DNA from: an uncultured candidate division Zixibacteria bacterium
GTDB lineage: Bacteria; Zixibacteria; MSB-5A5; UBA10806; 4484-95
Length of the DNA stretch: 64,000 bases
NCBI GenBank assembly: GCA_963668625.2
Contig: CAXXKA010000008.1
Location: forward strand, 288,001 to 352,000
Reading direction: 5' to 3'
A model generated the notes under the pieces. The model worked only from the letters and a program-made list of their open reading frames with translations, did no database searches and was not told where the DNA came from. A program made the position numbers and the translations under genes. Each line of letters starts with the position of its first letter. Position 1 is the first letter of the stretch. Of this stretch, positions 27,036 through 49,860 are shown piece by piece.

Positions 27036-27039
27036 CGAA

Positions 27040-28038
27040 CTAATACTCCAATACCACCGAGAAAATGTTAGTGCCGCCGAGATCTTTCATGTCGGTATAA
27101 GCGAAATCCAGAAGCGCGTTAAAACCCGAGGCGTTTATTTTAAGCCCGGCGCCCAGCGAGAAATTTTCGACCGAGGAGTTGAACAGGTAACCGCCCCTGA
27201 GAAAGAGCATATCCTGGTAGCCGTATTCGACACCCATCGCGATATTTTCGGCGTTGTCTGTTGGATGGTTTAACTGTGTCGCCCAGGTAAGCTTTCCGTT
27301 GTCGGTCGTCAGCGGATCGAAAGCCGCCGAAAGCTTGAACACGGTTGGCGAGGAGAACGACTGGTAATCTTTCTCGATCCACTCACCGGATACTGTTTTA
27401 TACCGGAAAGAACCTTCAGGCTTAATCCTGCCCCCGAAATTCGACATATTAATAGCGAAACGAGTTGCGTAAAAATCGGTCTGATACAGAGTGCCGAGAT
27501 CGAACATCAAGGCGCGCATCTTCAAATCGTCCAAGTTTTCCTGCGCGAATTTGATAGTAAGCCCGCAGGAGAAATATTCCGTAAGTCTGATAGCGTATGT
27601 CAACCCGGCCGCAAAATCGGAATAGTCGAACATCTCGCCATTACCGGTCGGATTGTACTCGTCGGTCATCTCGAACGAGTCGGTTCCCAGGGTAATCAAG
27701 TAGGCTCCCAGCACATTCGAGTCATCCAGATGTTTGGTAACCCCGAAAAAACTATGCTTGAACTCTACTACCCATTGACGGTAGGCGAATCCGAAACCAT
27801 CCCTGTCATTGAAAGCGATACCGGCGGGATTGTGGTACAGTGCGAAAGCATCCGTAGCCGTTGCGGTGTAGGCTCCAGCCAGGGAGGCCGCCCTGGCGCC
27901 AACCCCGATTTTCAAAAATGTCATGGCTGAGGTGCCGGAACGCTCCTCGCCCAGGCTGGGGAAAATGTTGCCGGCGTTTGCTGATGAGATAGCCATGATA
28001 ATCAGCAGTACAGTTATAATTCTCGTAACTTTTACCAT
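27040..28038 (-). CDS. PorV/PorQ-family outer-membrane beta-barrel
   Basis: FLKIGVGARAASLAGAY, YHNPAGIA, FDLGTLY, GVEY..MLFLRGGY. Confidence 0.88.
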   Translation of the reverse strand: MVKVTRIITVLLIIMAISSANAGNIFPSLGEERSGTSAMTFLKIGVGARAASLAGAYTATATDAFALYHNPAGIAFNDRDGFGFAYRQWVVEFKHSFFGVTKHLDDSNVLGAYLITLGTDSFEMTDEYNPTGNGEMFDYSDFAAGLTYAIRLTEYFSCGLTIKFAQENLDDLKMRALMFDLGTLYQTDFYATRFAINMSNFGGRIKPEGSFRYKTVSGEWIEKDYQSFSSPTVFKLSAAFDPLTTDNGKLTWATQLNHPTDNAENIAMGVEYGYQDMLFLRGGYLFNSSVENFSLGAGLKINASGFNALLDFAYTDMKDLGGTNIFSVVLEY

Positions 28039-32253: not shown

Positions 32254-32274
32254 TTTCTATCGCAAATATTCTTG

Positions 32275-34272: not shown

Positions 34273-34285
34273 CTTGTACTCCTTT

Positions 34286-36427
34286 TCATTTAATGATAAC
34301 TATCTTTCCTCGTTGTACATCCCCCGAAACATCGTTCTTTACCGTATATAAATACATACCAGTTGCCAATGCTTGGTCAGCCTCCGAGACAACATCCCAG
34401 CTATGCATACCGCCGGAAAATTCTATGTCGCCCTCGGCGAAATCCTCATACCAGGCTATATCATCGCCGTTATACGTATCTGAGTCATGAGAAAACGCAT
34501 CGACGATTTCGCCCGCCAGAGTGTAAATCGTTACTGTACACTTATTGGGAAGATTATAAAAATGTATCATTCTTTGACGTTCCTTCGGGCCATCGGCGCT
34601 TCGACCATCCCAGCTCGCGAAAGAACGATAGGGATTAGGAAACACTCCGACCTTAGCATCCGCAGCAGCAGCCTCGGGGCCGGGAAACACTCTATTATAG
34701 TTAACCAGCGGACTCGATTCGAGGCTCTCGAGGTTATTAGCCGGATCGCCCGTATCGAATGCTGTTACGGAATAAATATACTGCCAACCGTTCAATAAAT
34801 CATTATTGGTTAATTTATAATACATCGAATCGCCATCGATTACTACTGGCATATCCAGCCTGACATACTCCAGGCCGGTATTAAACCCGATTGAATCAAC
34901 CAGGTCGAACTGGCCTATCATCTGCAACAGGTCTTTCAATCCCTGGCTTTGATTATCCTGAGTAATCCGGGCGCGATAAATTCGATACCCTTCGAAATCA
35001 GCTCTGCCCAAAACCGGGTCGACATAAGATTCAGGCGAGTTATCCCAATAAACCTCAACCGTATTATCCAGGGCCCGTACTTTCATGGTAGGCGGCGGCG
35101 GGGCAGAGGGTAAAATATACCTATCTATGATTCCATTAGGCGGCGTTCCTCCGGGCCCCTCCTGATCCTCGCCGGGATCGAGAATACCATTAGAATTTTT
35201 ATCTTCACCGTCATAAGCGATCTGCGCCCATCTGGCGTTATTTACGAGATTCGTTTTTGATAATTCGGTATCATCGCCGATCGGATCGGGGCCGAATTTA
35301 GACGCGCACACCAGGGCGAACACGACCTGCATGGTTGAATCGGGCATTAAGGTCGGAAACGGCCCGGTCGATATCAACATAGTCCAGTTGCTCGAGGCGT
35401 AGCAGTCGGCCGACCAACCGCTGCGAGGTGTATCGTTAAAGCCGTTGGAAAGTCTATCGTAACGAGTGTTATCGCTTACCGGAGCGATAAACCACAAATT
35501 CGGATCACTGGAGTTATTCCATTTCCAGATATTATAATTGACTGCCGCCGAGTCGGTATACAGTATCCGGTTATCGAACTCATCCCGATAAGCGGGCGGT
35601 GTACTACCGAGCACCCTGCAGCCAATGTAACTTTCAGCGAAACCGTCATCGCCATCGTTTTCGTATGAATAACCCATTGCCATACTATCGATAAAATTAC
35701 AGGGATCATCATAGAAACTCCAACTCCTGTTTGGGCCGCTAAAAGGAGTCAACTCGGCATTTCCTATAGTGGGCTCGTACCAGTAACCAACCCAGATATC
35801 GTCAATAGGTGAGTCGCTATTATTGGTTATATCAAATGAAAAAATCACGAAAGCATCGGCAAACGGTAAACTCCAGGAGTATGTCTCCTGATGCACGTCG
35901 ATACCGAATGGATCATGGTTGGGAATTTCAGATTGGTTACCGTAGGCATCCACGACGAATCTGGAGGAGTCGGAGAAATCACAAATAAAATCCTGATGGC
36001 TTATCGCCTCGGGGTGGAAAAAACGAGAGCTTGTCAAGCTGGAGCGCTCTTCTATCTGGTAGATAACCGAGCCGGTATCGCGAGTGGTAAATTCGAATCC
36101 CTCGGTGCCCTCCGCTTCCGGGTATGCATCAACGGCGCCCGTTGAAACTTTACGTTGACCGTTTTGCTCTCCACCGAACCACAGGCCTCCCATCCACAAA
36201 TGCTCTATACTGGAGCCGATGGGATATTCACACGAGGGCTGATCATCTTTTTGAAAAGCCGTACCGTAGACCCCGTAGTTGGTGATTGTTAGGCTAATAT
36301 CCCCAATTGTGGTATAGTGTGTATCGTCATCAAGGGCTATTGATGAGTAACCTGCTATAACCATCGATAATACCGCAATGCTCATGATGATGAGACTTTT
36401 TATATTTCTTTTTTCGGATGATTTCAT
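34286..36427 (-). CDS. Large secreted protein typical of FCB TonB/PorV loci (FN3-like + CTD-like C-terminus)
   Basis: Signal; ITNYG..G; EYPIGS..EHL; Ca-binding-like DKNSNGILDPGED; FEGYRIYR; VFPNPY...IYTLAGE...WD...ATGMYLY. Confidence 0.8.
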   Translation of the reverse strand: MKSSEKRNIKSLIIMSIAVLSMVIAGYSSIALDDDTHYTTIGDISLTITNYGVYGTAFQKDDQPSCEYPIGSSIEHLWMGGLWFGGEQNGQRKVSTGAVDAYPEAEGTEGFEFTTRDTGSVIYQIEERSSLTSSRFFHPEAISHQDFICDFSDSSRFVVDAYGNQSEIPNHDPFGIDVHQETYSWSLPFADAFVIFSFDITNNSDSPIDDIWVGYWYEPTIGNAELTPFSGPNRSWSFYDDPCNFIDSMAMGYSYENDGDDGFAESYIGCRVLGSTPPAYRDEFDNRILYTDSAAVNYNIWKWNNSSDPNLWFIAPVSDNTRYDRLSNGFNDTPRSGWSADCYASSNWTMLISTGPFPTLMPDSTMQVVFALVCASKFGPDPIGDDTELSKTNLVNNARWAQIAYDGEDKNSNGILDPGEDQEGPGGTPPNGIIDRYILPSAPPPPTMKVRALDNTVEVYWDNSPESYVDPVLGRADFEGYRIYRARITQDNQSQGLKDLLQMIGQFDLVDSIGFNTGLEYVRLDMPVVIDGDSMYYKLTNNDLLNGWQYIYSVTAFDTGDPANNLESLESSPLVNYNRVFPGPEAAAADAKVGVFPNPYRSFASWDGRSADGPKERQRMIHFYNLPNKCTVTIYTLAGEIVDAFSHDSDTYNGDDIAWYEDFAEGDIEFSGGMHSWDVVSEADQALATGMYLYTVKNDVSGDVQRGKIVIIK

Positions 36428-36649: not shown

Positions 36650-39600
36650 TTACTTCGATATGTTGAGGTTGTTATTCTGTTTAATCTGAGAGGAGGAGGT
36701 AGAGGTGGTAGAGTTATCGCAATTCGGCCAACCGGCAGGCGCGGTCGCGGGAAGCTCTTCCGGAGTGGTCCACTCGGGAGTGTAATCTTCCTCGTCGCCA
36801 ACATCATCGCCGCAATACTTGAGCGTATTAGCGCCACGGAAGTATTGGACGAGATAAGTCACGTCAGCACCGATTACAGAGCAATCGCCGTTAGCATCCG
36901 CCGAGGCATAAAATCCATCAAGCAAACACGGAGTCGATATGCCGCGGAAGTAGTTTACCAGGTAAGTAACGTCAGCGCCGATAACGTTCGGCGGCCAGGC
37001 AGTAACAGCGTACATATTGGCATCACCGGGTAGATATTCGTAATTATCTCCGCCTTCCTCACAGTTGAGGCCGGTATCGAAATCATCATTGGAGCGAGGC
37101 TGAACTCTCCAGTAGCCCCAGCGCCAGCGTACCACACCGGTTAAACCATCAATGCGCTGACCAACTTCAACGGAATCGAAATTGGTATATTTGCCGTCGA
37201 AAGCGATCGTGTCGGCATTGTCCGTCAGGGACATGATAAGTACACGAGCAGTGTCGTTGCTGGTTTCCATCGATACGATTTCGAGAGAATCGCACAACTG
37301 GACCAGGACGCCCTCGAAATTCTCGCGATAGGCATCTAAGGTGTTGTACTGGAAATCGCCGGCATCATATGTCTTGTAGGTCGGCTCAGCGACGCCACTG
37401 CCAACTATAGTAACATTTTTGAAATCATCAATATTGGAGATCTCGGTAGCGCCGTAATATTCGGTTACCTGACCCGTCAGGATAACGGTATCACCTTCAA
37501 CGGGGCGATCCATACTTGCATCCCAATACTGATAGCTGCCATAGCAAAGTACACCGTTATTAGTAGTGCCGCTAAGGTCGCTGATATAGATATTATTGTA
37601 CGTGAAAGCGGTCGTATCGGCAATGATACAGCCTCTCATGGTAATGATAGCATCGAGCAGATCACTCGGGTAGGTATTGTCTACACCAGGATCGGTGGTT
37701 GTCTGTACCATGTTGATAGGGGTAAAGCCCTGATAGAACGGGGTGCTCACGGGTGTAGTAATACCAATACCTGAGCTATCCGTGACGTTAGCCACGGTTA
37801 CCTCATCGAGAATACCGTTACCCATCGCCGGGCTGAGTGTCAGGAATACTCTGACAAGATCGGCATCCAGCGCGGCAGCCGTAACCGACAGGCCACTGGT
37901 AATAGTATAGTTACCCGGGGTTTCGGCGGAACCCTGATCCAGGGCGCGATCGAACATCACGCACAGGGTCGACTGATCGATCGGGAAGGAAGCGGTAACT
38001 GTCGGAGGAGGCACGATGTTAACCTGAAGGTCGGAATCCATACGCGGTTGAAGTTTAAGACGATCGTCGTACTGGTCGTAAGTAACTATACCGATGACAT
38101 AATCGTATACGAGGTCGGTTGACGGCGGGTAAGCCGAGAGAGTCATGTCATAGATATCGGGTCCGAGAAGTACGGAATCAGCGCCGGAACCGGAATCGGT
38201 GATCCACCATTTGCCATAACCGGGTGAACTACCAACGGTGACATCCTCGATCTGAACGAGAACACCCTCGTAAGCCTCACCGGTGAAACTGCAGTCGCCA
38301 AGCGGCAGCAGGTCACTTATGGAGATGACGAGCGGATCAGGTACGGGAGTATTCGTGCCGAGCAGGGTGTATTCGACTAACGAATCGAGTTCGGTTATAC
38401 CGACATACTCACTGACAGTGGCGCGAACCTGATAGTAATCGCCGATAGCGGCGGTTTCAAGGTCGACTTCCTGAGTGGCCGAGGTCAGATCATACCAGAG
38501 TATACCCTCATAGGTAGTACCTTCGGGATCCTGAATGAACAGACCGGTGCCCGAACCCTGGTTATCGACAGCGGTAACGACGCCGCAAACCTCGACAATA
38601 CCGGAATCGACAAAGGTTGACGGGTAGCAGTTATCGAGAATGTTATCGAAAGGATCGAACGAGTTCTGTATCTCGAAAATAGTGTTCGTAGCGGTACATT
38701 CGATAGCTTCCGTCTGGAAATCAGCAGCACTTCTGGGCTCGAGCCTGTTAGCGCTATAAGCATATTTATGAACACCGGTGATAGTGTAATATTCTTCACC
38801 GGTAGCAATCGGGAGAGAATCCAGCAGGTCGTCATCAACCAGGAATGTATCATTGCTGGCGTCAAAAGCCCAGTAACTGCCATGATCGGCTACTTCACCA
38901 ATGGTAACATTGCTGACTACGACAAGCATATTCTCATAAGCCTCGTCGGCTTCATCACAAGCATCGGTAATATCCGAGCCATCAACCAGAATCGGTGTAA
39001 CGACATTGCCGCTGGAAACCAGGGTAACATCCGTCACGTTAGTAAGCTCGGTTAAACCGTAGTACTCGGTAACATCAGCGGTAATCTCAACCAGATCACC
39101 AACCGCGAAACTTGAGAGATCATAAGAACCGGCATAAACCCAGATACCACCGTAGGTGGAAGCAGCAGGGTCCTGCAGGGACATGGCACTACCCAGAATG
39201 CCGGTAATAATACCTGTGGTGGTAATATCAGTCTCACCGCTGTGCGGACCATCATAACAATCACCACCGGTGGCAGGGTAGTTTAATTCGTTGATCGTGT
39301 AATCAACGGTGGTACCACCATCATCGATATCCGAAGAAAATCTCGGGTATACCCGGTATTTATCGTAGTAATAATGAACAATACCTACAATGTAGTCGTA
39401 AGTTTGACCCTGCACCAGATCAACTGGATTATCCGTGCCATATTTATGCATCTGGTCGTCCACAGCGCAAGAATCAGAAGCGCCGGCGGTTTTAACCCAG
39501 GCCACATTATCAGCATCGGGACCAACGACACAGGTTACATTTTCCAATTTGACCAGTACGCCTTCATAAGCCTCTGTCGAACCGTTACAATCAGCGTTAA

Positions 39601-41308
39601 GATTATCTGAAGTAACCGTGGTAGTGCAAACTGAATTACCCGTAGAATTGGTCGTTACCGACACGACACTGGAAAGCTGAGAACAGCCGTAGTATTCGGC
39701 AACCGAACCAATTACCGTGACATTATCGCCTATGCTCAGGCTATAATTATCATCATAAACATAAATACCGTTCCAATCGGTGGTGGTACAATCTTGAATG
39801 TAGAAATCAGGATAAGAACCCTGATTAATACCGGTAACCGTACCGGTAACTGAGATATTTTCAGACAAGCGAGGTGAATCATAGCAATTGCCATTAGCCT
39901 CAATCGTGTACTGAACATCATAGATTGACACTTCCTCGGGACCGCCGGCAACCAGATTGAATGAACAATCATCCACATAAACTGTAGCATCGCCGTCCCA
40001 ATTGTCGGAATCATCATAACACCTGATACCGACCTTAACGGAAGTGGCGCCTGTCGGGGCCGCCGTCGAATAGGTCATCAATTGCCAATCGGCCAGATCG
40101 GAGGAATAATTGCTTGACCATGTATTACCGGTATCCCAGGCAAAATAAATCGTGATATCGCCTGCGATATCGTTGTCGTAAACATAGAGACTACAAATAT
40201 ATGTTTCTTCAGCCGTAATTGTAAACGAATTCGAGAAAAGCTCACAGTCTGCTTGTATTTGAGAGGTCCAGGTCAGATTAGCGCTGTAGCTTCCGCCATG
40301 GACGGTGGTGCCTTCCTGGGCTCCGGTAATCGAACCGCTGGCATCCAGTTCCCAACTATCGGCAGGGCCGGTAGCACCGTTCTCGGTCCAGAGCTCGAAG
40401 TCGCCGTTCTCGAGGCTAGCGCTCGGGTAATCCGAAACGGTATAGTTATTAACGTAGGATTCTACGCGCTCACCATCGTCATCTTTAACCTGCACATAGT
40501 ATTCAACCAGAGTACCAGCCACCTGAGCCGGCATAGTATACCAGTAATAACCATCGGTAGCATCAATGCTATCGTGATATACAGCGGTATACGCCAGAGT
40601 CGGGGCTGTTGTCTGGTAGTAAAGACTGTCATCATCAATAGTGCCATCGGAATCGGTTAATTCCGACCAAACCAATACGACATCATCAGGCAATACGGTC
40701 GGGTAAGGATCACGGTAAACGAATCCTATTTCCGGGGGCTGATTCGCGCCGCCCGTTCCCTCGAACAAGGTAACATCATCGACAAAAACGGTGGCATCGC
40801 CGTCCCAATCACCCGAGATATCATACTGCCGAATAAGAATTTTGCCATAGGCAGCGCCGGCGGCGGCATTCGCTGCAAAGCTGTATTCTACCCAGGCGGC
40901 GGAATCCGAGGAATAGACGCCCGAATAACTGGCCGATAGATATGCCTGTCCTGAATCATACCACTCGAAACATAAACGAAGTCGACCGGCAATATCATTA
41001 TCATACATCCAGGCATAAACCGTATAAAGCTCTTCGCCCGTAACGGCGAACATATCGGAAACGAAATCCTGATTGGACTGTGAGGTCCAGGTCAGGTTTA
41101 CGCTATAACTGTCACCGTGAACTGTTGTGCCTTCCTGAGAACTGGTGAAATCCGAATTATCGTTAGTCCAGTTATCAGGCGGTCCACTCGTTCCACCGGT
41201 CCAGCTTTCAAAATCGCTATTAGCGATCGTAACTGGAGTCTGGGCGAAAGCGGGAATACACAATACGGCCGACATCATAATAGCCAGCAATATCTTAATC
41301 TTCATCAT
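36650..41308 (-). CDS. Giant secreted protein: 2 CBM4/9-like domains, 4 ExeM/YhcR-like OB-fold modules, Ig-like domains, C-terminal dockerin
   Basis: Signal MMKIKILL after RBS gaaagga; two N.DFE.W...VDD repeats; four I..(Q)..G.VT..QD..G..GD.V...V.EY.G...E.YEG.LV...PR..D modules; GDAN..IGADVTYLV duplicated dockerin. Confidence 0.85.
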   Translation of the reverse strand: MMKIKILLAIMMSAVLCIPAFAQTPVTIANSDFESWTGGTSGPPDNWTNDNSDFTSSQEGTTVHGDSYSVNLTWTSQSNQDFVSDMFAVTGEELYTVYAWMYDNDIAGRLRLCFEWYDSGQAYLSASYSGVYSSDSAAWVEYSFAANAAAGAAYGKILIRQYDISGDWDGDATVFVDDVTLFEGTGGANQPPEIGFVYRDPYPTVLPDDVVLVWSELTDSDGTIDDDSLYYQTTAPTLAYTAVYHDSIDATDGYYWYTMPAQVAGTLVEYYVQVKDDDGERVESYVNNYTVSDYPSASLENGDFELWTENGATGPADSWELDASGSITGAQEGTTVHGGSYSANLTWTSQIQADCELFSNSFTITAEETYICSLYVYDNDIAGDITIYFAWDTGNTWSSNYSSDLADWQLMTYSTAAPTGATSVKVGIRCYDDSDNWDGDATVYVDDCSFNLVAGGPEEVSIYDVQYTIEANGNCYDSPRLSENISVTGTVTGINQGSYPDFYIQDCTTTDWNGIYVYDDNYSLSIGDNVTVIGSVAEYYGCSQLSSVVSVTTNSTGNSVCTTTVTSDNLNADCNGSTEAYEGVLVKLENVTCVVGPDADNVAWVKTAGASDSCAVDDQMHKYGTDNPVDLVQGQTYDYIVGIVHYYYDKYRVYPRFSSDIDDGGTTVDYTINELNYPATGGDCYDGPHSGETDITTTGIITGILGSAMSLQDPAASTYGGIWVYAGSYDLSSFAVGDLVEITADVTEYYGLTELTNVTDVTLVSSGNVVTPILVDGSDITDACDEADEAYENMLVVVSNVTIGEVADHGSYWAFDASNDTFLVDDDLLDSLPIATGEEYYTITGVHKYAYSANRLEPRSAADFQTEAIECTATNTIFEIQNSFDPFDNILDNCYPSTFVDSGIVEVCGVVTAVDNQGSGTGLFIQDPEGTTYEGILWYDLTSATQEVDLETAAIGDYYQVRATVSEYVGITELDSLVEYTLLGTNTPVPDPLVISISDLLPLGDCSFTGEAYEGVLVQIEDVTVGSSPGYGKWWITDSGSGADSVLLGPDIYDMTLSAYPPSTDLVYDYVIGIVTYDQYDDRLKLQPRMDSDLQVNIVPPPTVTASFPIDQSTLCVMFDRALDQGSAETPGNYTITSGLSVTAAALDADLVRVFLTLSPAMGNGILDEVTVANVTDSSGIGITTPVSTPFYQGFTPINMVQTTTDPGVDNTYPSDLLDAIITMRGCIIADTTAFTYNNIYISDLSGTTNNGVLCYGSYQYWDASMDRPVEGDTVILTGQVTEYYGATEISNIDDFKNVTIVGSGVAEPTYKTYDAGDFQYNTLDAYRENFEGVLVQLCDSLEIVSMETSNDTARVLIMSLTDNADTIAFDGKYTNFDSVEVGQRIDGLTGVVRWRWGYWRVQPRSNDDFDTGLNCEEGGDNYEYLPGDANMYAVTAWPPNVIGADVTYLVNYFRGISTPCLLDGFYASADANGDCSVIGADVTYLVQYFRGANTLKYCGDDVGDEEDYTPEWTTPEELPATAPAGWPNCDNSTTSTSSSQIKQNNNLNISK

Positions 41309-42067
41309 CTTTCCTTTCTCGTTGAAAGATTTACTTATCACCACAATTTCTTCTAAAAAACTTTCTTGAATTTTTAAGCCGTTAACCAGCTCATCGAATT
41401 AAGTCAGACAATTTTCCTGATTTCCATTGTCTTATTTTGTTAAGTACCATTAAAACTACATTACAACTATTATCAGAACTTCCTGATGGTGCGCGGCTAA
41501 ATATAACCGGAGTGATGCTTTTCCCCGATCGTTCACATGCAGCCAGGGCTGCCATTCGAAACGGTAATATCATGACGTGTGCTTTAAATTAAAAACATCA
41601 CTGACCCGTTCTTTCCGTATCATTAACCACGGTTAAACTTAATATCACCACCTTTTAAAAAAATCATATGAGCATGTTATTAAAGTCAGGTTAAAAGTTT
41701 TTGATTTTACTGCCATAATAATACTCTTGAAAAACCTCCGATGACAAAGCGGTAATAATATCCGCACCTGTTCCTTTGATCACGTTTACTACTTCACCGC
41801 CAACCGGTATTTTAAAACTTTCTTTTTTGTTTCCTACTGCTTCGATGTTAAATCAATAGCTAAGTATAGAATTAGCTTTAGCACACTGTTAGTCGTTTGT
41901 TAGGCTTTTGTAAAACATCTTCCAAACCGAAGTTTTTAAGTAGAAAAGTACTTTTATTTTCAGTAGCCCTCTTCATCTAAAACATGAGTTCTAGATACTT
42001 ATATTTTAATCAATTATCATGAATAATACAATAAAAATATGACAAAAAACAAGGTTAACCGATAAGC

Positions 42068-42607
42068 TTAAACTAATTTATCAAGCAATAGCCGGGCGGC
42101 TTCCGAGGCTGAGTATATAGTAGAGTCTATTTTTAATAACGGTTCTTTTTCATATGCATAATCGTAACCGAACCCCGGTAATTTCGTTAACCCCTGCTGT
42201 GCCCGTTCATACAGATTGACAATCTCCGCTCGATCAGTACGGTTTTTCTCCCTTTCGATACAAATCTCAATCGGACAATCGATCCAGACGACCTGCAAAC
42301 CCTTAATGCGCTTACGGGCCATCTGACGACCGCAACCCTGCCCGTCAACCGAATCGATGATAGCGTTAACACCATATCTGTTAAGAAGTTCGGCGGTTAG
42401 AATAGCACAGCGATAAACCAGTTCTCTTTCCTCGCGGGTAAATTGCGGATTGGGAGTAATAAACTGGCGTATTTCATCCAAACGAATATATTCGCAAACT
42501 AGCTTATTGTCATCTAATAGCTTGATGAGTTCTTTGGAAATAGTAGTCTTTCCCGAGCCGGATAGCCCGGTTACCCATAAAGTCCAGGGTTTCTCTATTG
42601 CTGTCAC
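42068..42607 (-). CDS. Adenylyl-sulfate-kinase-like P-loop kinase, copy 1
   Basis: WVTGLSGSGKTT, LDEIR, IIDS, WIDCPIEICIERE; GTG start after ggag chosen by comparison with the paralog. Confidence 0.8.
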   Translation of the reverse strand: MTAIEKPWTLWVTGLSGSGKTTISKELIKLLDDNKLVCEYIRLDEIRQFITPNPQFTREERELVYRCAILTAELLNRYGVNAIIDSVDGQGCGRQMARKRIKGLQVVWIDCPIEICIEREKNRTDRAEIVNLYERAQQGLTKLPGFGYDYAYEKEPLLKIDSTIYSASEAARLLLDKLV

Positions 42608-42746
42608 CTCACTCCAAATCCTTTCAAAGCCCAAGATTATAAAATACGGTTGCTTATGTCAATAACGAATAACACTATTAACAAATAATTAACTAGGTTT
42701 ATGATGATAATTATCGTATATTGTTCCGGTTCAACAGATAGGAGAT

Positions 42747-43517
42747 ATGATGACAAACACCGAAAATAATGCCAGTATGGATAATTTCTGGTTAAATCTA
42801 AAAAACAAATCTGAAAATGCTATAAAGAAGGGGAAAATGCCCCTGATAATAGTCGATCTCGATGGCACTCTCGTGGATTACACGATGAGAACATACAGCA
42901 TTTTCCAGGAAATGCCGAACAATTTTGACCTTCCCGATAATGTAAGAGATATAATTCTATCGATAAAACCCTCCGAATTCCACTACCATCCCCGGGAAAA
43001 CCTGAATAGCGTTGGTATCGAGGATAGTGAATTGGTTGATCAACTCTCGGCTTTCTGGGAGAAAAGCTTCCTATCGAATTATTATCTTCACTACGATATC
43101 CCTCTTGATGGCAGCGAGGAGTTCATCAGGAATATTCTCGATCATGGTATAAATATTGTATATCTAACCGGTCGGGATGAGGAAAACATGGGTATGGGCA
43201 CAAGGACCTGGCTACAAAAATACAACCTGCACCCCCTGGAGAATCGCACCCGCCTGCTCCTGAAAACGGATATGAGCTTGATTAATTACCAGGCCAAAGA
43301 TAAAAACTGTGAGATAATCAAAACACTCGGCGAACCAGTGCTCATAATCGATAACGAACCTATCGAGTTGGCCACTACCTGGGGTAGATTCCCCGAGGCA
43401 ATAGGTATTTTAATGGAGACCCAAAACACCGGTCGCAAAGCCGAACTGCCGGCAAACACTATCAGGATGCCTAATTTTCTCGAGCTGAATTCGAAAATCG
43501 AAATACCGAGTTACTGA
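42747..43517 (+). CDS. HAD-superfamily phosphatase, copy 1
   Basis: DLDGTL (motif I), YLTGR (II), K (III), IIDNEP (IV). Confidence 0.82.
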   Translation: MMTNTENNASMDNFWLNLKNKSENAIKKGKMPLIIVDLDGTLVDYTMRTYSIFQEMPNNFDLPDNVRDIILSIKPSEFHYHPRENLNSVGIEDSELVDQLSAFWEKSFLSNYYLHYDIPLDGSEEFIRNILDHGINIVYLTGRDEENMGMGTRTWLQKYNLHPLENRTRLLLKTDMSLINYQAKDKNCEIIKTLGEPVLIIDNEPIELATTWGRFPEAIGILMETQNTGRKAELPANTIRMPNFLELNSKIEIPSY

Positions 43518-43566
43518 TATTTCCGAATCCGGTATCTGCATAAAATATTAAGTACATGTAGGTATC

Positions 43567-43595
43567 GTAGGGATTCAGAAATTTGAATCCCTGCT
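43567..43595. repeat. GTAG-type REP-like palindrome between convergent genes
   Basis: gtagggattca-gaaatt-tgaatccctgc, similar to 883-910. Confidence 0.55.
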
Positions 43596-43691
43596 TAGTA
43601 TATACGATATATCCCTAACTAATCACGATAAGGTAAACATAGTCCTCATAATAATATAAACATTTAAAAGGAGGATAATCGTTTTCGATAA

Positions 43692-44237
43692 CTATTCTAG
43701 AGTATCAGCGATGAGTCTGGCCGATTGATCGGCGGTAAAAGCAATAGAATCGATTTTTAAAAGTGGATTCGGCTCATATGCATAATCGTAGCCTAAGCCG
43801 GGCAATTTTAGCTGCCCTTGAAGGGCTTGTTGATATAAATCCACGATCTCGGCTTTATCCTCTCGGTTATGCTCCCGCTCGATACAAGTATCCAGAGGAC
43901 AGTCTATCCATATAATGTGGAAATTCGCGAGGTATCTCTTGGCCAGTTCACGTGCCTCGCCCCGACCGTCCACGGAATCGATTATAGTGTTAATTCCTTG
44001 AGCTTGCATGAGTTGCGCGATTAAAATAGAGCTTCTGTAGATAAACTCTTTCTCCTCCTGGCTAAAAGTCGGCTCGGGAGTTAAGAACTGCCGAATCTCA
44101 TCGGCCCTGACATATTCATAGCGCGTATTTTTGGATTCCAGTATTTTTATCAGGCTTTTACAAATAGTGGACTTGCCCGAACCCGAAAGGCCGGTTATCC
44201 AGATGATCCAAGGTTGTTTTATTTTAGTTTCGCCCAT
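43692..44237 (-). CDS. Adenylyl-sulfate-kinase-like P-loop kinase, copy 2
   Basis: WITGLSGSGKST, ADEIRQFLTPEP, IIDSVDG, WIDCPLDTCIERE; paralog of 42068. Confidence 0.82.
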   Translation of the reverse strand: MGETKIKQPWIIWITGLSGSGKSTICKSLIKILESKNTRYEYVRADEIRQFLTPEPTFSQEEKEFIYRSSILIAQLMQAQGINTIIDSVDGRGEARELAKRYLANFHIIWIDCPLDTCIEREHNREDKAEIVDLYQQALQGQLKLPGLGYDYAYEPNPLLKIDSIAFTADQSARLIADTLE

Positions 44238-44362
44238 CTTCGAGTCCTCAGCTCACAATATCACTAATGTTCGCTGATGTCAAGAAACTTGCGAAACTAA
44301 CTAAAAATTAGTATCGTTCGACAATATAATTGATATATTTAAGTAAAATAGGATGATGAATT

Positions 44363-45127
44363 ATGACCCAAAAACAAAATCTGCAAATCGATTATTCCAA
44401 TTTCTGGCAAAAAATATCTCAACGAGCTAAAAGCGTGAAATCTTCCGGCGACCGGCCGATACTCATAATCGACCTGGATGGCACATTGGTGGACTACACT
44501 TTAAGAACGTATAAGATTTTCCAGAAAGCTCTGCAGGAACTCGACCTGCCGGACACGATCAAAAAACAGGTCGATGATATCAAGCGCGAGGATTACGATT
44601 ATTTCCCGAAAACAAATTTCGTCCGGGCCAATATCGGGGATGATAAAACTATCAACGATCTGACCGGTTTCTGGGAGGGTAAGTATTTCATCAATGAGTA
44701 TCTCAAATACGATAAGCAAATCCCCGGCGCCTACGAATTTATCTCGAATATCCTCCAACTCGGTATCGAGATCGTGTACTTGACCGGCAGGGATGACCAG
44801 AATATGGGGGATGGAACTCGCATGTGGCTTAAAGAGAACGGCTTCTTAGTTGATGGTGACAATAGATGTCGTTTGTTGATGAAAATGGATCTGGAAATTG
44901 AGAACTACGAATCCAAAGCCCGTAATGGCGAAACTATCGGGACGCTCGGTCAGCCGGTTTTGATTATCGACAATGAGCCGATTGAGCTGCAAACGATGTC
45001 GGAAAGATTCCCGGATGCCAATATCGTGTTGGTGGATATGCCCAATTCCGGCAAGCCGGCTAAATTGCCCGAGGACATTTTCAAGATTAAGGATTTCCGA
45101 AAATTAAACGAGGCGTTCGAGAAATAG
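44363..45127 (+). CDS. HAD-superfamily phosphatase, copy 2
   Basis: DLDGTLVDYT, YLTGRD, IIDNEPIEL; paralog of 42747. Confidence 0.82.
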   Translation: MTQKQNLQIDYSNFWQKISQRAKSVKSSGDRPILIIDLDGTLVDYTLRTYKIFQKALQELDLPDTIKKQVDDIKREDYDYFPKTNFVRANIGDDKTINDLTGFWEGKYFINEYLKYDKQIPGAYEFISNILQLGIEIVYLTGRDDQNMGDGTRMWLKENGFLVDGDNRCRLLMKMDLEIENYESKARNGETIGTLGQPVLIIDNEPIELQTMSERFPDANIVLVDMPNSGKPAKLPEDIFKIKDFRKLNEAFEK

Positions 45128-45517: not shown

Positions 45518-45547
45518 AAAACAGGGAGTACTCAAGCACTCCCTGTT
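45518..45547 (-). terminator. Rho-independent terminator after the MFS gene
   Basis: aacagggagt/actccctgtt 10-bp stem with a minus-strand T-tract. Confidence 0.65.
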
Positions 45548-45581: not shown

Positions 45582-47045
45582 TTAAGCTTTTTTAGTACCT
45601 GGTTTCGGCATCGCTTTCCAGATTTTAACGGCAAGCAAGAAACCGATTACCGTAAACGGAATCAGGAATACCGGCCACCAGCTCCAGTTGGACGAGGTGA
45701 TAAAGCCCAGGCTCAACGACTGGAATCCGGTACCAAGGTACACGAAACCATCGATTAAGCCAACAGCCGTCGCCGCCGCTCGTTTGCCGCCGAAATCCAT
45801 AGTCGAGGTGCCCGAAAGCATACCGTGCGTACCGATAACACAGAACGACATCAACACGACAGCAATTGCCAGAAGCATTTGATCTCCTTTAACCACGAAT
45901 ACCATCAGGAGAGTGGCAAAGAACATGAGGCCATAAAGCAAGCCGGCCACCGGGCCTCTTCGCGAACCGAAAACCTTATCCGAAAGTACACCGGCAACCA
46001 TGCCACCGAACACGCCCGCCAGCATCAGTATCAAGCCCCAGTGTTGACGCATGAATGCATCCGAGGCTTGATGCAGGAAATCTTTCAGGTAAATCGGATA
46101 CCAGTGCATCACGCCGTTACGCAGAACACCGGTGCAGAACTCGATCAGGGCGATTGTCAGGATGATCTTGTTGGTCAGGATTTTCTTCAAGATATCTTTC
46201 AAGTTGAACGGCTTATCGTCCTCGCCCGAGGAGGCATCCGCGGTATTGAAATCCTGGAATCCCGCGCCGCTGGGAGTATCACGCAAAATAAACAGGTCGA
46301 GTATGGCAAATATCACCAGTATACCGGCCGGCACGAAAAACACCCACCATGTCTGATCGTTTGCCGTACCGGCGATACCCAGTATGTTACGCATCGCCAC
46401 CTGTATGAAATTCAGATCGACATCGACAACCGCTTTGGTGGCATTGACGATAGCGAATCCCCAGTCGAAAGCGAAATATATGCCCAGCGAGATCAGTATC
46501 CCGAATATCCCGCCGAACACACCTCGTTCCCGTACGTGGAACCAGGAGGCATTTACTTTTACGATAGCCACTGCGCCGAAACTCTGGAAATACATATTGA
46601 GCGCGTAAAAGAACGAGAATACCACAGTCAAATTCATAGCCCATTCGTGAACCAGGAAACCGTAGGTAATTATTCCCATCAGTACATTGGCAATAGCTGC
46701 GCCGGTCGCGCCGATAAGGATGGCCTTTTTACCGCCGATCCTATCGGTCAACGGTCCGTTTATCAAAAAAGCCAGGGCATAAGTGATAGTACCGGCGGCG
46801 AATATAATACCGAAATCCTCCTTGGTCATTAATTCACCCAGGGCATTTTTGGATACGGTCAGGTTATATCGAGCCATATATAAGAAAGCGTACGTAAATC
46901 CGAGAGGCAGCCAGTTGATAACTCGCCGGAGTTTGAATTGCATCGTATGGTGTACATCCGGATTCTCCCGGAAAATATCCATCAACACATACGCCACCAC
47001 CATCACGATAGGCGCAATGGAGATAAGGTCAAACAGTAACTTCAT
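45582..47045 (-). CDS. MFS transporter, organophosphate:Pi antiporter (GlpT/UhpT, OPA) family
   Basis: YAFLYMARYN (conserved Arg), GPLTDRIGG, WFHVRERG, GVLRNG...W.P, GVLSDKVFGSRRGP, A.G.IDGFVYLG. Confidence 0.85.
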   Translation of the reverse strand: MKLLFDLISIAPIVMVVAYVLMDIFRENPDVHHTMQFKLRRVINWLPLGFTYAFLYMARYNLTVSKNALGELMTKEDFGIIFAAGTITYALAFLINGPLTDRIGGKKAILIGATGAAIANVLMGIITYGFLVHEWAMNLTVVFSFFYALNMYFQSFGAVAIVKVNASWFHVRERGVFGGIFGILISLGIYFAFDWGFAIVNATKAVVDVDLNFIQVAMRNILGIAGTANDQTWWVFFVPAGILVIFAILDLFILRDTPSGAGFQDFNTADASSGEDDKPFNLKDILKKILTNKIILTIALIEFCTGVLRNGVMHWYPIYLKDFLHQASDAFMRQHWGLILMLAGVFGGMVAGVLSDKVFGSRRGPVAGLLYGLMFFATLLMVFVVKGDQMLLAIAVVLMSFCVIGTHGMLSGTSTMDFGGKRAAATAVGLIDGFVYLGTGFQSLSLGFITSSNWSWWPVFLIPFTVIGFLLAVKIWKAMPKPGTKKA

Positions 47046-47571: not shown

Positions 47572-49140
47572 ATGAAAATATGTACTCCAAACCAGATGCA
47601 GGAAATCGACCGCAAAGCTATTGAAGGACTCGGTATACCCGGGTTAGAATTAATGGAAAACGCAGGCCGGTCGGTTTACGACATGATTTTAGAATATTAC
47701 GGACCCGCCGAGGGCAACCGGGTGGCGATTGTCGCCGGTAAAGGAAATAATGGCGGTGATGGTCACGTAGTCGCGCGTTACCTCAAGGAGGATGGCGCGC
47801 ATGTAGAGATCTACCTGATCGGTAAGAAAAGCCAGGTTAAAGGTGATGCCGCCGAGAACCTGATGCGAGCCGAACGTATCGGCATAGCTATTCACGAAAT
47901 CGAGGATTCCGAGGATCTCATAATTCCCGAGGACACATGGGTAATTGTCGATGCCATTTTCGGAACGGGTTTCAACGGCAAGCTTCGCCAACCATACGAT
48001 CATATCATCAAGAAAATCAATCAATCCGGTATACCGGTAGTGGCTGTGGATACCCCCTCCGGCCTGGATGGTACCACCGGCCGTGTAACCGATCCCTGTA
48101 TCAATGCCGATATTACAGTCACGTTCGGTCTTGCGAAAATCGGCCAGGCATTGTATCCGGGCAAGGCTAATTGCGGCAATCTCGAGGTTGTCGATATAGG
48201 TTTCCCTCCGGGCCTGGATGATGATATCCACACTTATCTTATCACCGCCGAGGAGGCGGTAAAGCTTCTGCCTCATCGAATACATAACGCTCACAAGGGT
48301 AATTTCGGTAAGCTGTTCGTATTAGCCGGCTCCACCGGACTTACCGGCGCCGCCTGTCTGGCCTCGATGGCCGCATACCGTTCCGGAGCGGGACTGGTAA
48401 CTTTAGGTTGCCCGGCCTCCCTTAACCAGATATTCGAAACCAAGCTCACCGAGGTGATGACAAAACCCTTACCCGATGTCGCCAAGAAAGGCTGTCTGGC
48501 CACGCGCGGTATGGGCGAGATTCGCGAGATGATCGACTGGGCGGATGCTATAGCAATCGGCCCCGGAATCGGGACTCATCACGAAACAGCCGAACTGGTG
48601 ACAAGATTGGTTGAGGAGATAGACAAACCAATGGTTATCGATGCCGACGGTTTGAACATACTATCGAAAAATCTCGAAAGCTTGAAAGCCCACAAGCGAC
48701 CGCTGGTGATCTCACCGCATCCCGGCGAGTTCGCTCGTCTCTCCGGCCACAGCATAGATGAGGTTCAACAGTACCCGATAGATTTAGCCTCGCAATTCGC
48801 CTGGGATTACGATTTAAGCGTGATTTTAAAAGGAGCGCCGACAGTTGTAACCCGTCGCTCAGGCAATATTTATATCAACTATTCGGGCAATGATGGCATG
48901 GCAACCGGTGGCTCAGGGGATGTTTTAACCGGGCTGATCGGCGGTTTCCTGGCTCAGGGTGTGTGCTATTCCGATGCTGCCGTGCTGGCAACATACGTGC
49001 ATGGTCTGGCCGGAGATATTGCGGCCGAGATTTACGGCACCCGAGGTATGATAGCCGGTGATATCCTTCAGTTCGTTCCGCAAGCATTAAGCGAGCTCGA
49101 GAACTGTTGCGATGATGATATAGGCGATTACGAGGACTAA
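47572..49140 (+). CDS. nnr: Bifunctional NAD(P)H-hydrate epimerase/dehydratase
   Basis: LMENAG, GKGNNGGDG, DAIFGTG, DTPSG, HKGNFG, IGPGIG, DADGLN, PHPGEF, MATGGSGDVLTG. Confidence 0.95.
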   Translation: MKICTPNQMQEIDRKAIEGLGIPGLELMENAGRSVYDMILEYYGPAEGNRVAIVAGKGNNGGDGHVVARYLKEDGAHVEIYLIGKKSQVKGDAAENLMRAERIGIAIHEIEDSEDLIIPEDTWVIVDAIFGTGFNGKLRQPYDHIIKKINQSGIPVVAVDTPSGLDGTTGRVTDPCINADITVTFGLAKIGQALYPGKANCGNLEVVDIGFPPGLDDDIHTYLITAEEAVKLLPHRIHNAHKGNFGKLFVLAGSTGLTGAACLASMAAYRSGAGLVTLGCPASLNQIFETKLTEVMTKPLPDVAKKGCLATRGMGEIREMIDWADAIAIGPGIGTHHETAELVTRLVEEIDKPMVIDADGLNILSKNLESLKAHKRPLVISPHPGEFARLSGHSIDEVQQYPIDLASQFAWDYDLSVILKGAPTVVTRRSGNIYINYSGNDGMATGGSGDVLTGLIGGFLAQGVCYSDAAVLATYVHGLAGDIAAEIYGTRGMIAGDILQFVPQALSELENCCDDDIGDYED

Positions 49141-49431: not shown

Positions 49432-49860
49432 ATGCTGAAACATAAAGGGGCTGCAATTATCATTCTTCTAGCGGCAATTATCAATTGCTCTAAATTTTGC
49501 GAGGTCGACCAAATCTATCAAATCGGTAAGCAAGGAGATGAAAACATCATCCTGGCTTATCAGGTACGATGCCAAGAAAAATCGAATAACTGGGTGGGGG
49601 TTACCTGGAAAGAGAAGGACAAACATTTCGAGCCCGGTATAGGTAAGATTTTTATGGCTAGAAATTCGGATTATATTTGGATCGAGAGAGTTTCACCCGA
49701 TACGGTCAAAGTATATACCGATACCGACACCGCCAAGGTTAAAGTCGAACAAGCGCGGGGAATTACGTTCGTTTATGAGCGAAAAGATCCCGAGTTTTTC
49801 GAAAACGATAGTTTAAAAGTGCACAAGCTGGAGGCGATAGCCAACCTTAAAGATAAATAG
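49432..49860 (+). CDS. Hypothetical exported protein / lipoprotein
   Basis: RBS aaggagg; hydrophobic N-terminus ending IINC. Confidence 0.7.
   Translation: MLKHKGAAIIILLAAIINCSKFCEVDQIYQIGKQGDENIILAYQVRCQEKSNNWVGVTWKEKDKHFEPGIGKIFMARNSDYIWIERVSPDTVKVYTDTDTAKVKVEQARGITFVYERKDPEFFENDSLKVHKLEAIANLKDK

What the first reader, a model, noticed from the sequence alone, without database searches (positions are those of the whole stretch)
42068..45127. Tandemly duplicated divergent kinase/HAD-phosphatase cassette, possibly a split PNKP-like or metabolite phospho-switch module
Seen: the order kinase(-)/HAD(+)/kinase(-)/HAD(+), each pair divergent across ~125-140 bp. Both spacers keep 'gct.atgtcaa' (TTGACA on the minus strand). 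The paralogs are clearly diverged yet all four ORFs keep their catalytic motifs. The kinases resemble APS kinase but have LDEIR/ADEIR instead of LDGDNVR, and no sulfate-assimilation genes are nearby. The HADs have DLDGT/LTGR/K/DNEP. Known: T4 polynucleotide kinase-phosphatase fuses a P-loop kinase (GxxGSGKS, DxxR) to a DxDGT/SGR HAD domain. Inference: a two-gene kinase/phosphatase unit for nucleic-acid end healing or nucleotide/organophosphate interconversion, retained twice with diverged specificity.
Basis: partly seen in the sequence, partly recalled or inferred. Interest (0 to 1): 0.7.

Follow-up and report, generated by a model that had tools for sequence, protein, structure and literature searches.

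The report
Duplicated kinase-phosphatase gene pair, substrate unknown
Two diverged copies of a back-to-back gene pair, one gene for an enzyme that adds a phosphate and one for an enzyme that removes one, sit next to a phosphate-ester transporter; the pair recurs in other bacteria, probably handles a small metabolite rather than sulfate or broken nucleic acids, and its substrate is unknown.

Summary
The four ORFs are real and arranged as described: K1(-)/H1(+)/K2(-)/H2(+), with K1/K2 56% and H1/H2 45% identical. The kinases have the APS-kinase fold (TM 0.81). They belong to a separate clade of about 53 clusters that misses every NCBIfam APS-kinase cut-off and lacks the LDGD and ISP motifs and one adenine-stacking Phe. 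The phosphatases are HAD enzymes with a 75-residue helical C1 cap and no close solved relative. That cap type points to small molecules, not the capless PNKP type. The divergent K/H pairing recurs in 3 of the 5 close-clade genome loci, in different flanks. Distant relatives of the HAD are fused to P-loop kinases (2 proteins) and to a transporter 44% identical to the window's neighbouring GlpT-like MFS. No sulfate-assimilation gene lies in the 64 kb window. The shared spacer motif is not beyond chance. Synonymous sites are saturated, so dN/dS is uninformative. Verdict: a conserved, uncharacterised small-molecule kinase/phosphatase module, duplicated long ago. It is not an APS kinase by motif and not a split PNKP. 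The substrate is unknown, possibly nucleotide-like.

The parts
42068..42634 (-). K1, an APS-kinase-fold P-loop kinase of the non-canonical clade. It is 188 aa from the TTG start; I infer that the 179-aa database entry P0024 starts at the GTG at 42607.
   Evidence: It groups with P0022 and P0033 in the kinase tree.
42635..42746 (.). Divergent spacer 1 (112 bp). It holds TTGACA on the minus strand and a promoter-like site for H1 at 42678-42705.
   Evidence: The shared 11-mer is not beyond chance.
42747..43517 (+). H1, a C1-capped HAD phosphatase (256 aa) with motifs DLDGT, LTGR, K and DNEP.
   Evidence: It falls in the H1-type group of the tree.
43692..44237 (-). K2, the paralogous kinase (181 aa).
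   Evidence: Model pLDDT 88.4. Best structural match is A. fulgidus APS kinase, TM 0.81.
44238..44362 (.). Divergent spacer 2 (125 bp). It holds a promoter-like TTGACA-17-TATTGT with an extended TG for K2 at 44283-44255.
44363..45127 (+). H2, the paralogous HAD phosphatase (254 aa). The cap lies at about residues 44-118.
   Evidence: Model pLDDT 91.7. Fold search returned only generic C1 HADs.
45520..45547 (+). Terminator-like hairpin (10 pairs) in the convergent gap between H2 and the transporter gene.
   Evidence: This is a consensus scan only; the number of terminator-like sites in the region was no higher than in shuffles.
45582..47045 (-). GlpT/UhpC/PgtP-like MFS transporter (487 aa), convergent to H2. 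It is a probable organophosphate:phosphate antiporter linked to this HAD family.
   Evidence: It is 44% identical over its full length to the MFS half of the MFS-HAD fusion P0256. Orthologues lie beside the HAD in L006 and 8 kb from it in L005.

Best explanation
The region holds two old paralogous copies of a conserved two-gene module. One gene encodes a cytoplasmic P-loop kinase with the APS-kinase fold and a rebuilt acceptor site. The other, transcribed divergently, encodes a cytoplasmic HAD phosphatase with a C1 cap. I propose that the two enzymes act on the same small phosphorylated metabolite, most likely one after the other. The kinase would add a second phosphate to an organophosphate that already carries one, and the HAD would remove one phosphate from the bisphosphate, so the phosphate ends up at a new position. 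The substrate would be supplied by the neighbouring GlpT-like organophosphate:phosphate antiporter. What the kinase keeps from APS kinase (the catalytic Asp, two phosphate-clamping Arg/Lys and one base-stacking Phe) makes a nucleotide-like or otherwise anionic phospho-ester the best guess. The two copies would handle two related substrates. Shown: the gene anatomy, fold, motifs, clade separation, recurrent pairing and fusions. Inferred: the shared substrate, the order of the reactions, the role of the transporter and the nature of the substrate.
For: (1) Separate kinase clade. Bit scores to K2 fall from 170 to 80 between the clade and canonical APS kinases. A branch of 3.6+2.9 changes per site, with 100/100 support, separates the 53 clade rows from 5 canonical ones. 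All NCBIfam APS-kinase cut-offs are missed, for example 72-83 bits against 138.7.
(2) Acceptor site, mapped onto M. tuberculosis CysC (PMC4373884, passages) through. Kept: Asp480 (D46), Arg483 (R49), Phe492 (F58), Arg497 (K/R63), Arg559 (R121) and Cys556 (C118). Lost: Asp478 (becomes the invariant R44), Ile-Ser-Pro (becomes the invariant DSVD) and Phe576 (becomes P or A). An 8-residue insert at the lid lysine creates R121-x3-R125.
(3) The fold is APS kinase: TM 0.81, with APS kinases at ranks 1-41.
(4) HAD. The model (pLDDT 91.7) has five helices inserted directly after motif I. Fold hits are C1-capped small-molecule HADs only, TM 0.57 or less. The nearest matches by sequence profile are class C acid phosphatase and e(P4), at E 0.002-0.03.
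(5) Coupling to a kinase. A clade kinase lies divergently upstream of the HAD in L001, L002 and L003, with different flanks in L002 and L003, and twice in the window. Three further K/H pairs are inferred from equal contig lengths of 4993, 3511 and 8479. Two of the 15 long HAD relatives scanned are HAD plus AAA_33 kinase fusions.
(6) Coupling to the transporter. P0256 is an MFS-HAD fusion whose MFS half is 44% identical to the window's MFS (E 3e-137). An orthologous MFS (706 bits) lies 142 bp downstream of the HAD in L006. The MFS aligns to GlpT 1pw4 with the RKNF and LRYG arginines kept.
(7) Both copies are old and constrained. K1 and K2 sit in different supported groups, each with partners from other samples. 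pN is 0.28 and 0.36 against pS 0.75 and 0.84.
Against: No substrate evidence exists, so the order of reactions and the 'phosphate move' are pure inference. The pairing is not obligatory. L004 and L005, a long-branch subclade of the close HAD clade, have no kinase within the DNA held. L006 and all 21 distant loci (L007-L027) also lack the clade kinase; for those 21 loci the Pfam scan covered only the two ORFs on each side of the HAD, and it found no other P-loop kinase there. The genomic context of the 24-row second kinase subclade is unknown. The transporter is missing from the full 10 kb flanks of L001, and it is convergent, not co-transcribed, in the window. L001 shares its upstream 1434-aa gene with the window (65% identity), so it is not an independent context. 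The fused kinases are only 22-23% identical to K2. Contexts of distant HAD relatives are mixed (NUDIX, phosphonate-type ABC, trehalose enzymes), so the wider family is functionally diverse.
Confidence: 0.4

Rival explanations
1. Opposing pair, a phospho-switch. The kinase and the HAD catalyse the forward and reverse reaction on one metabolite or cofactor and set its level, as a regulated cycle rather than a pathway.
For: The evidence is the same coupling as for the main reading: adjacency and fusions. Divergent transcription from a shared spacer would allow separate control of the two genes.
Against: An unregulated cycle wastes ATP, and no regulator gene or sensor domain is conserved beside the pair. 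The MFS-HAD fusion fits handling of transported material better than level-setting.
Confidence: 0.2
2. True sulfur activation. K1 and K2 are divergent APS kinases that make PAPS, and the HADs remove the 3'-phosphate of PAP or PAPS.
For: Pfam APS_kinase scores 69-75 bits, above the 21.1 cut-off. The fold is APS kinase. The catalytic Asp, both phosphosulfate Arg positions and one Phe are kept. Sources name clade members adenylylsulfate kinase. The nearest Atlas look-alike clusters are auto-named adenylyl-sulfate kinase.
Against: All six NCBIfam APS-kinase models are missed by wide margins. The LDGD first Asp, ISP and the second Phe are replaced by other clade-invariant residues. No ATP sulfurylase, reductase or sulfotransferase appears among the 40 ORFs scanned in the window or the 30 ORFs scanned within 5 kb in L001-L006. 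A long tree branch separates the clade.
Confidence: 0.08
3. Split PNKP. The kinase phosphorylates 5'-OH ends and the HAD removes 3'-phosphates of RNA or DNA, as in T4 or mammalian PNKP.
For: DxxR and RxxxR motifs are present. Weak hits exist to bacterial Pnkp (26 bits), to the C. thermocellum Pnkp kinase domain (E 1e-3) and to PSTK, a tRNA-directed kinase (E 3e-11). HAD-then-kinase fusions exist in relatives; from memory, that is the domain order of mammalian PNKP.
Against: The HAD has a C1 cap whereas PNKP is C0 (PMC11164532, passages). HAD_PNKP is below its cut-off. No PNK appears among the fold hits listed to rank 50. No ligase, Hen1 or nuclease partner was found. The family is linked to a small-molecule transporter.
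Confidence: 0.07
4. Unrelated neighbours. The two genes merely share a promoter region and the tandem repeat is a neutral segmental duplication.
For: The pairing is absent in L004 and L005. The spacer motif is not significant.
Against: The same divergent arrangement occurs in Ignavibacteria and Zixibacteria records with different flanks. Fusions of the HAD family with P-loop kinases exist. Both copies are intact, with every family-invariant residue kept, after synonymous sites have saturated.
Confidence: 0.05

Closest known systems
Adenylyl-sulfate (APS) kinase, CysC (Pfam PF01583; solved examples 7yq1, 8a8h, 4bzp)
   Same: Same fold (TM 0.81, 2.2 A rmsd). Full-length sequence match (E 1e-28 with the clade profile). 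The P-loop, catalytic Asp, two phosphate-binding Arg positions, one adenine-stacking Phe and the ATP-stacking Arg are kept.
   Different: The first Asp of LDGD is an invariant Arg. ISP is an invariant DSVD. The second Phe is lost. There is an 8-residue lid insert with RxxxR. The proteins score below every NCBIfam cut-off. They form a separate clade on a long branch, have no sulfur genes nearby, and are paired with a HAD.
Class C acid phosphatase / lipoprotein e(P4) nucleotidases (PF03767; 3pct, 3ocy, 3et4)
   Same: These are the best sequence-profile matches among solved structures, over motifs II-III (E 0.002-0.03). PF03767 is just above its cut-off (29-36 bits against 27). Both are HAD enzymes with a helical cap that act on small phospho-esters.
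   Different: Only 65-80 residues match. The e(P4) equivalog model scores 18-22 bits against 216. By reading, there is no signal peptide or lipobox, so the window's proteins are cytoplasmic. Motif IV is DNEP.
Polynucleotide kinase-phosphatase (T4 Pnkp, mammalian PNKP, bacterial Pnkp)
   Same: The logic is the same: a P-loop kinase with DxxR working with a DxDGT HAD phosphatase. Distant relatives of this HAD are fused to a P-loop kinase.
   Different: The HAD is capped (C1) rather than capless. The kinase is APS-kinase-like, not Pnk-like. The proteins are separate. The Pfam and NCBIfam PNKP models are not met.
Kinase-then-HAD 'phosphate move' pathways such as HldE/GmhB in heptose synthesis (recalled, not tested here)
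   Same: Proposed logic only: phosphorylate a phospho-sugar to a bisphosphate, then a HAD removes the original phosphate.
   Different: There is no sequence relationship to those enzymes, and no substrate is known here.
GlpT/UhpT/PgtP organophosphate:phosphate antiporters (for the neighbouring gene)
   Same: The neighbour aligns to GlpT 1pw4 (E 1e-21) with the two arginine motifs kept. It hits TIGR00881 at 157 bits.
   Different: It scores below all the family cut-offs (157 against 407, 112 against 632). It represents a subfamily that occurs fused to this HAD family.

Membership tests
APS kinase (CysC, EC 2.7.1.25) | Scores above the curated family cut-off | tested here: inconclusive
   The broad Pfam PF01583 model is met (69.4 and 75.0 bits against 21.1). 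None of the six NCBIfam APS-kinase models is met, for example TIGR00455 at 72.4 and 82.9 bits against 138.7.
APS kinase (CysC, EC 2.7.1.25) | Invariant LDGD motif (Asp478 and Asp480 of M. tuberculosis CysC) | tested here: not met
   The motif reads R[LAM]D in all 27 clade sequences. The first Asp is replaced by the invariant R44 and the second Asp is kept. The motif's role is taken from PMC4373884, passages.
APS kinase (CysC, EC 2.7.1.25) | APS pocket: two Phe sandwiching the adenine, plus the Ile-Ser backbone of the ISP stretch | tested here: not met
   The Phe492 equivalent is kept (F58). The Phe576 position is P or A. ISP is replaced by the invariant DSVD.
APS kinase (CysC, EC 2.7.1.25) | APS-kinase fold | tested here: met
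   Foldseek ranks 1-41 are APS kinases, with TM 0.76-0.82.
APS kinase (CysC, EC 2.7.1.25) | Phosphorylates APS to PAPS | not testable with these tools
   This needs an enzyme assay.
Polynucleotide kinase-phosphatase (PNKP) | Phosphatase domain of the PNKP HAD type (PF25109) | tested here: not met
   18.8 and 17.4 bits against a cut-off of 27.6, with no stretch passing on its own.
Polynucleotide kinase-phosphatase (PNKP) | Capless (C0) HAD giving access to polymer ends | tested here: not met
   The model shows five helices (residues 46-116) inserted after motif I, pLDDT 91.7. The C0 against C1 rule, and PNKP listed as C0, come from PMC11164532, passages.
Polynucleotide kinase-phosphatase (PNKP) | Pnk-type kinase domain | tested here: not met
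   TIGR04075 scores 26.2 bits against 750, for K2 only. The CthPnkp kinase domain matches at E 1e-3, against 1e-28 for APS kinase. No PNK appears among the fold hits listed to rank 50.
HAD superfamily phosphatase | Four catalytic motifs (DxDxT; S/T; K; acidic pair) | tested here: met
   D37, D39, T41, K174, D203, N204 and E205 are invariant and T141 is nearly invariant (T or S) in 14 sequences. PF00702 scores 24.9 and 29.5 bits, around the 26.4 cut-off. The fold search returns HAD enzymes at probability 1.00.
Class B/C acid phosphatase (PF03767, e(P4)) | Full-length family match and equivalog score | tested here: not met
   PF03767 matches only profile positions 118-186 of 230. TIGR01533 scores 21.8 and 18.2 bits against 216.
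Organophosphate:phosphate antiporter family (neighbour gene) | Family score and the two substrate-binding arginines of GlpT | tested here: inconclusive
   It scores below the cut-offs (TIGR00881 157.5 against 407.75). It aligns to 1pw4 with the Arg of RKNF and of LRYG conserved. The residue numbers R45 and R269 are recalled.

The most novel reading that the evidence does not exclude
The module is a salvage route that gives mononucleotides, or another phospho-ester, the treatment PNKP gives polymer ends. The GlpT-like antiporter would import a 'wrong-position' phospho-ester, for example nucleoside 3'-monophosphates released by secreted nucleases. The APS-kinase-like enzyme would phosphorylate the free hydroxyl to give a bisphosphate, and the capped HAD would remove the original phosphate, yielding the usable isomer such as a 5'-NMP. 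The released phosphate would drive further antiport. The two gene pairs would cover two substrate classes, such as purine and pyrimidine or ribo and deoxyribo. Hints: the acceptor site keeps the phosphate clamps and one stacking Phe. The HAD's nearest sequence relatives are nucleotidases. Secreted EEP-family proteins lie upstream of the pair in L003, and a HAD-EEP fusion exists. NUDIX genes lie beside distant relatives in 8 of 21 loci.
Probability: 0.12. Interest if true: 0.7.

Novelty: new variant of a known kind. Interest (0 to 1): 0.45.

Why it matters
Automatic annotation calls these kinases adenylylsulfate kinases. That would wrongly credit Zixibacteria-, Ignavibacteria- and related genomes with PAPS synthesis. 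The evidence defines a separate APS-kinase-fold clade with a rebuilt acceptor site. It is tied to an uncharacterised branch of a large HAD family (937 representative clusters at E 0.001 or better) and to a subfamily of organophosphate antiporters. Finding the substrate would assign a function to three families at once. It could also reveal a new route for taking up and re-positioning phosphate esters in poorly known, uncultured lineages.

Tried and rejected
(1) Complex prediction of K2 with H2 using alignments A5 and A4 (after queue-full answers). The result was no verdict (score 0.00 in two runs) and is not used either way.
(2) dN/dS between the copies. Synonymous sites are saturated (pS 0.747 and 0.841; dS is undefined for the HADs), so no ratio can be given. 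Only pN well below pS can be reported.
(3) The spacer motif as a conserved operator. It was rejected because 217 of 1000 shuffles match as well. GTCAA (TTGAC on the minus strand) occurs in all 5 K/H spacers by reading, which fits an ordinary -35 box.
(4) Anti-phage defence. PADLOC gave only weak generic P-loop hits, 24 bits or less, and nothing for the HADs.
(5) The ESM Atlas gave only generic names: 'HAD family hydrolase' and an automatic 'phosphoserine phosphatase family' for H2, and 'adenylyl-sulfate kinase family' for K2. These are leads only.
(6) Sequence search of H2 against solved structures gave nothing meaningful.
(7) Literature searches for APS-kinase-like proteins, and for HAD with P-loop kinase or transporter neighbourhoods, listed nothing that describes this pair. 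Only listings were seen, and subscription papers are not covered.
(8) A third conserved neighbour was sought. None is shared by all K/H loci.
(9) Equal contig length was used as a proxy for co-location of metagenomic K and H proteins. It gave three matches, but the word-indexed search misses many family members, so no rate can be derived.
Full report
OBSERVATION

The two K/H pairs are divergent across 112 and 125 bp. The first spacer would be 139 bp if K1 starts at its tenth codon, which I infer from the 179-aa database entry P0024. K1 and K2 are 56% identical and H1 and H2 45% identical. At the DNA level only patches align, at 64-76% identity.

The shared GCTnATGTCAA exists in both spacers. 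However, 217 of 1000 shuffles of the two spacers give an equally long match with one mismatch or fewer. It is therefore not evidence of a conserved site. It contains TTGACA on the kinase strand, and a promoter-like TTGACA-17-TATTGT precedes K2.

THE KINASES

Pfam places both kinases in APS_kinase (69 and 75 bits; cut-off 21.1), with weaker hits to AAA_33, KTI12, CPT and others. All six NCBIfam APS-kinase models are missed by wide margins, for example TIGR00455 at 72 and 83 bits against 138.7.

In the 5.8-billion-protein set, bit scores to K2 drop sharply from 170 to 80 between about 53 clusters and ordinary APS kinases. In a tree of 58 rows, the 53 clade rows are split from 5 canonical kinases by a branch of 3.6+2.9 changes per site with 100/100 support. 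Rows shorter than 165 aa and the duplicate K1 entry P0024 were left out of that tree.

The AlphaFold model of K2 (pLDDT 88.4, lower in the lid) matches APS kinases at Foldseek ranks 1-41 (TM 0.76-0.82). PSTK follows at TM 0.63. No polynucleotide kinase appears among the chains listed to rank 50.

I mapped the clade onto the residues described for M. tuberculosis CysC (PMC4373884, passages read through 'find'), using the alignments.
- Kept: the Asp next to the acceptor hydroxyl (D46), both Arg that hold the phosphosulfate (R49, and K or R at 63), one of the two Phe that sandwich the adenine (F58), the Arg that stacks on ATP (R121) and the lid Cys (C118).
- Lost: the first Asp of LDGD (an invariant Arg, R44), the ISP stretch (an invariant DSVD) and the second Phe (P or A).
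- Added: eight residues at the position of the lid lysine, which creates an R121-x3-R125 pair.

These proteins are APS-kinase-fold enzymes with a rebuilt acceptor site. The site still looks made for an anionic, possibly base-bearing, substrate.

THE PHOSPHATASES

H1 and H2 carry all four HAD motifs. D37, D39, T41, K174, D203, N204, E205 and P206 are invariant and T141 is nearly invariant in 14 sequences.

Pfam gives only marginal, partial hits: Acid_phosphat_B at 29 and 36 bits against 27, over profile positions 118-186 of 230. HAD_PNKP is below its cut-off at 17-19 bits against 27.6. The single sequence finds no solved relative. The family profile finds class C acid phosphatase and e(P4) at E 0.002-0.03, over motifs II-III only.

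The model (pLDDT 91.7) has five helices between residues 46 and 116, inserted straight after the motif I strand. That is a C1 cap. Foldseek returns only generic C1-capped small-molecule HADs at TM 0.57 or less and 11-16% identity. They include phosphoglycolate phosphatases, beta-phosphoglucomutase and pseudouridine-5'-phosphatase, with a mitochondrial deoxyribonucleotidase at rank 36 and AphA at rank 44.

Capless C0 HADs such as PNKP take macromolecules, while C1- and C2-capped ones mostly take small molecules (PMC11164532, passages). By reading, neither H1 nor H2 has an N-terminal hydrophobic segment, so both should be cytoplasmic.

The exhaustive search found a large family: 937 representatives at E 0.001 or better, 591 at 1e-10 or better, but only 6 at 1e-30 or better.

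IS THE PAIRING CONSERVED?

One genome scan with the HAD alignment gave 27 loci. A clade-specific kinase HMM hit 3 of the 27 (L001, L002 and L003) plus both window copies. In each case the kinase is on the opposite strand directly upstream of the HAD, with spacers of 94-280 bp.

In the HAD tree the close clade (20 of 30 rows, 100/100 support) contains H1, H2 and L001-L005. L004 and L005, together with P0132, form a long-branch subclade (1.44) that has no kinase. L006 falls outside the close clade, with the Bdellovibrionota-type sequences. So 3 of the 5 close-clade genome loci have the pair.

Flanks differ: a prolyl oligopeptidase in L002, and two EEP-family proteins (one with a T9SS tail) in L003. 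L001 shares the window's upstream giant gene at 65% identity, so it is not independent of the window.

None of the loci shows a second pair, but only L001 has full flanks.

The 21 distant loci have no clade kinase. In the Pfam scan, which covered only the two ORFs on each side of the HAD (72 ORFs), a NUDIX gene lies within two genes downstream on the opposite strand in 8 of 21, a phosphonate-type ABC binding protein lies upstream in 5, and trehalose-related enzymes are present in 3. Much of this is probably shared ancestry within Bdellovibrionales.

FUSIONS

I scanned 15 long proteins (339 aa or more) from the 150 representatives listed, together with 5 of ordinary length.
- Two (P0168, P0235) are HAD followed by an AAA_33 P-loop kinase.
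- One (P0256) is an MFS transporter followed by the HAD.
- One (P0237) is the HAD followed by an EEP domain.
- One (P0134) is a tandem HAD.

The fused kinases are only 22-23% identical to K2.

The MFS half of P0256 is 44% identical over its full length to the window's MFS gene at 45582-47045 (E 3e-137). The closest orthologues of that gene lie 142 bp downstream of the HAD in L006 (706 bits) and 8 kb from it in L005 (618 bits).

That MFS is GlpT/UhpC/PgtP-like but scores below the family cut-offs. It aligns to GlpT 1pw4 with the arginines of the RKNF and LRYG motifs conserved.

AGE AND SELECTION

K1 (with P0022 and P0033) and K2 (with P0011 and P0012) lie in different supported groups of one 29-row subclade. 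H1 and H2 lie in two weakly supported groups. The duplication therefore predates this genome's lineage.

Synonymous differences are saturated (pS 0.747 and 0.841), against pN 0.278 and 0.364. A dN/dS value cannot be given, but both copies have clearly been under constraint on average, and both keep every family-invariant residue. H1 and H2 differ more in the cap (39% identity) than in the core (56-75%). This is compatible with diverged specificity but does not prove it.

CONTEXT

No sulfate-assimilation gene is found among the 40 ORFs scanned in the window or the 30 ORFs scanned within 5 kb in L001-L006. PADLOC finds nothing relevant.

INTERPRETATION

Three things are established. The kinase clade is distinct, has the APS-kinase fold and has an altered acceptor site. 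The HAD clade is distinct and C1-capped. The HAD family is linked, by adjacency and by fusion, to P-loop kinases and to a GlpT-like transporter.

From this I infer a cytoplasmic small-molecule module. The mechanism I think most likely is sequential action on an imported phospho-ester: the kinase makes a bisphosphate and the HAD removes one phosphate. That logic is recalled from HldE/GmhB and from PNKP itself. I hold it at about 0.4.

Rivals:
- An opposing kinase/phosphatase switch (0.2).
- True APS kinase with a PAP(S) phosphatase (0.08).
- A split PNKP (0.07).
- Unrelated neighbours (0.05).

The remaining probability is for mechanisms I have not thought of.

LIMITS

- The contexts of the second kinase subclade (24 rows, some named Zixibacteria) and of the fusion proteins are unknown.
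- No supplements were consulted.
- Literature searches turned up no description of this pair, but I saw only listings and two sets of passages.

Noticed in passing
window 36650-41344 (-): This 1564-aa secreted-looking protein has no Pfam match at E 1e-5 or better and has dockerin-like repeats near its C-terminus (by reading). Its homologue (65% identity over the first 670 residues, 44% over the rest) occupies the same position upstream of the kinase in the Zixibacteria record L001, so the window's organism is probably related to that lineage.
   Followed up: partly
window 25392-36427 (-): A run of minus-strand genes: an NHL/SGL-repeat protein, a PorV-like protein, a TonB-dependent receptor with a carboxypeptidase-regulatory domain, and proteins with FlgD-Ig or T9SS sorting tails. 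It looks like an outer-membrane uptake and type IX secretion cargo cluster. ORFs 28032-31031 and 30811-32253 overlap by about 220 bp, so one start is probably called too early.
   Followed up: no
L016-L021, L023, L026 (around locus position 10700-12100 or equivalent): In Bdellovibrionales records the distant HAD relative has a NUDIX hydrolase gene on the opposite strand within two genes downstream (8 of 21 loci). In 5 loci a phosphonate/phosphite-type ABC binding protein plus ATPase lie upstream. This may be a conserved nucleotide or organophosphate unit of its own, or only shared synteny.
   Followed up: partly
L008 7030-8823, L012 7564-9453, L014 2529-4169: Three distant HAD relatives sit beside trehalose-type enzymes: GH15 with a trehalase-like N-domain in two loci and a GT20 trehalose-6-phosphate-synthase-like gene in one. 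This hints that part of the wider HAD family acts on sugar phosphates.
   Followed up: no
L003 5264-9097 (+): Two endonuclease/exonuclease/phosphatase-family proteins, one with a T9SS sorting tail, lie directly upstream of the K/H pair in an Ignavibacteria record. A HAD-EEP fusion (P0237) exists among the distant relatives.
   Followed up: no
window 47572-49140 (+): A bifunctional NAD(P)HX epimerase/dehydratase (YjeF type) is divergent from the MFS gene. This adjacency is not seen in the related loci, so it is probably unrelated to the module.
   Followed up: partly
window 49432-49860 (+) and 41391-41573 (-): These small ORFs (142 and 60 aa) flank the region and have no Pfam match. The 142-aa one has a hydrophobic N-terminus followed by a Cys (by reading), so it could be a lipoprotein.
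   Followed up: no
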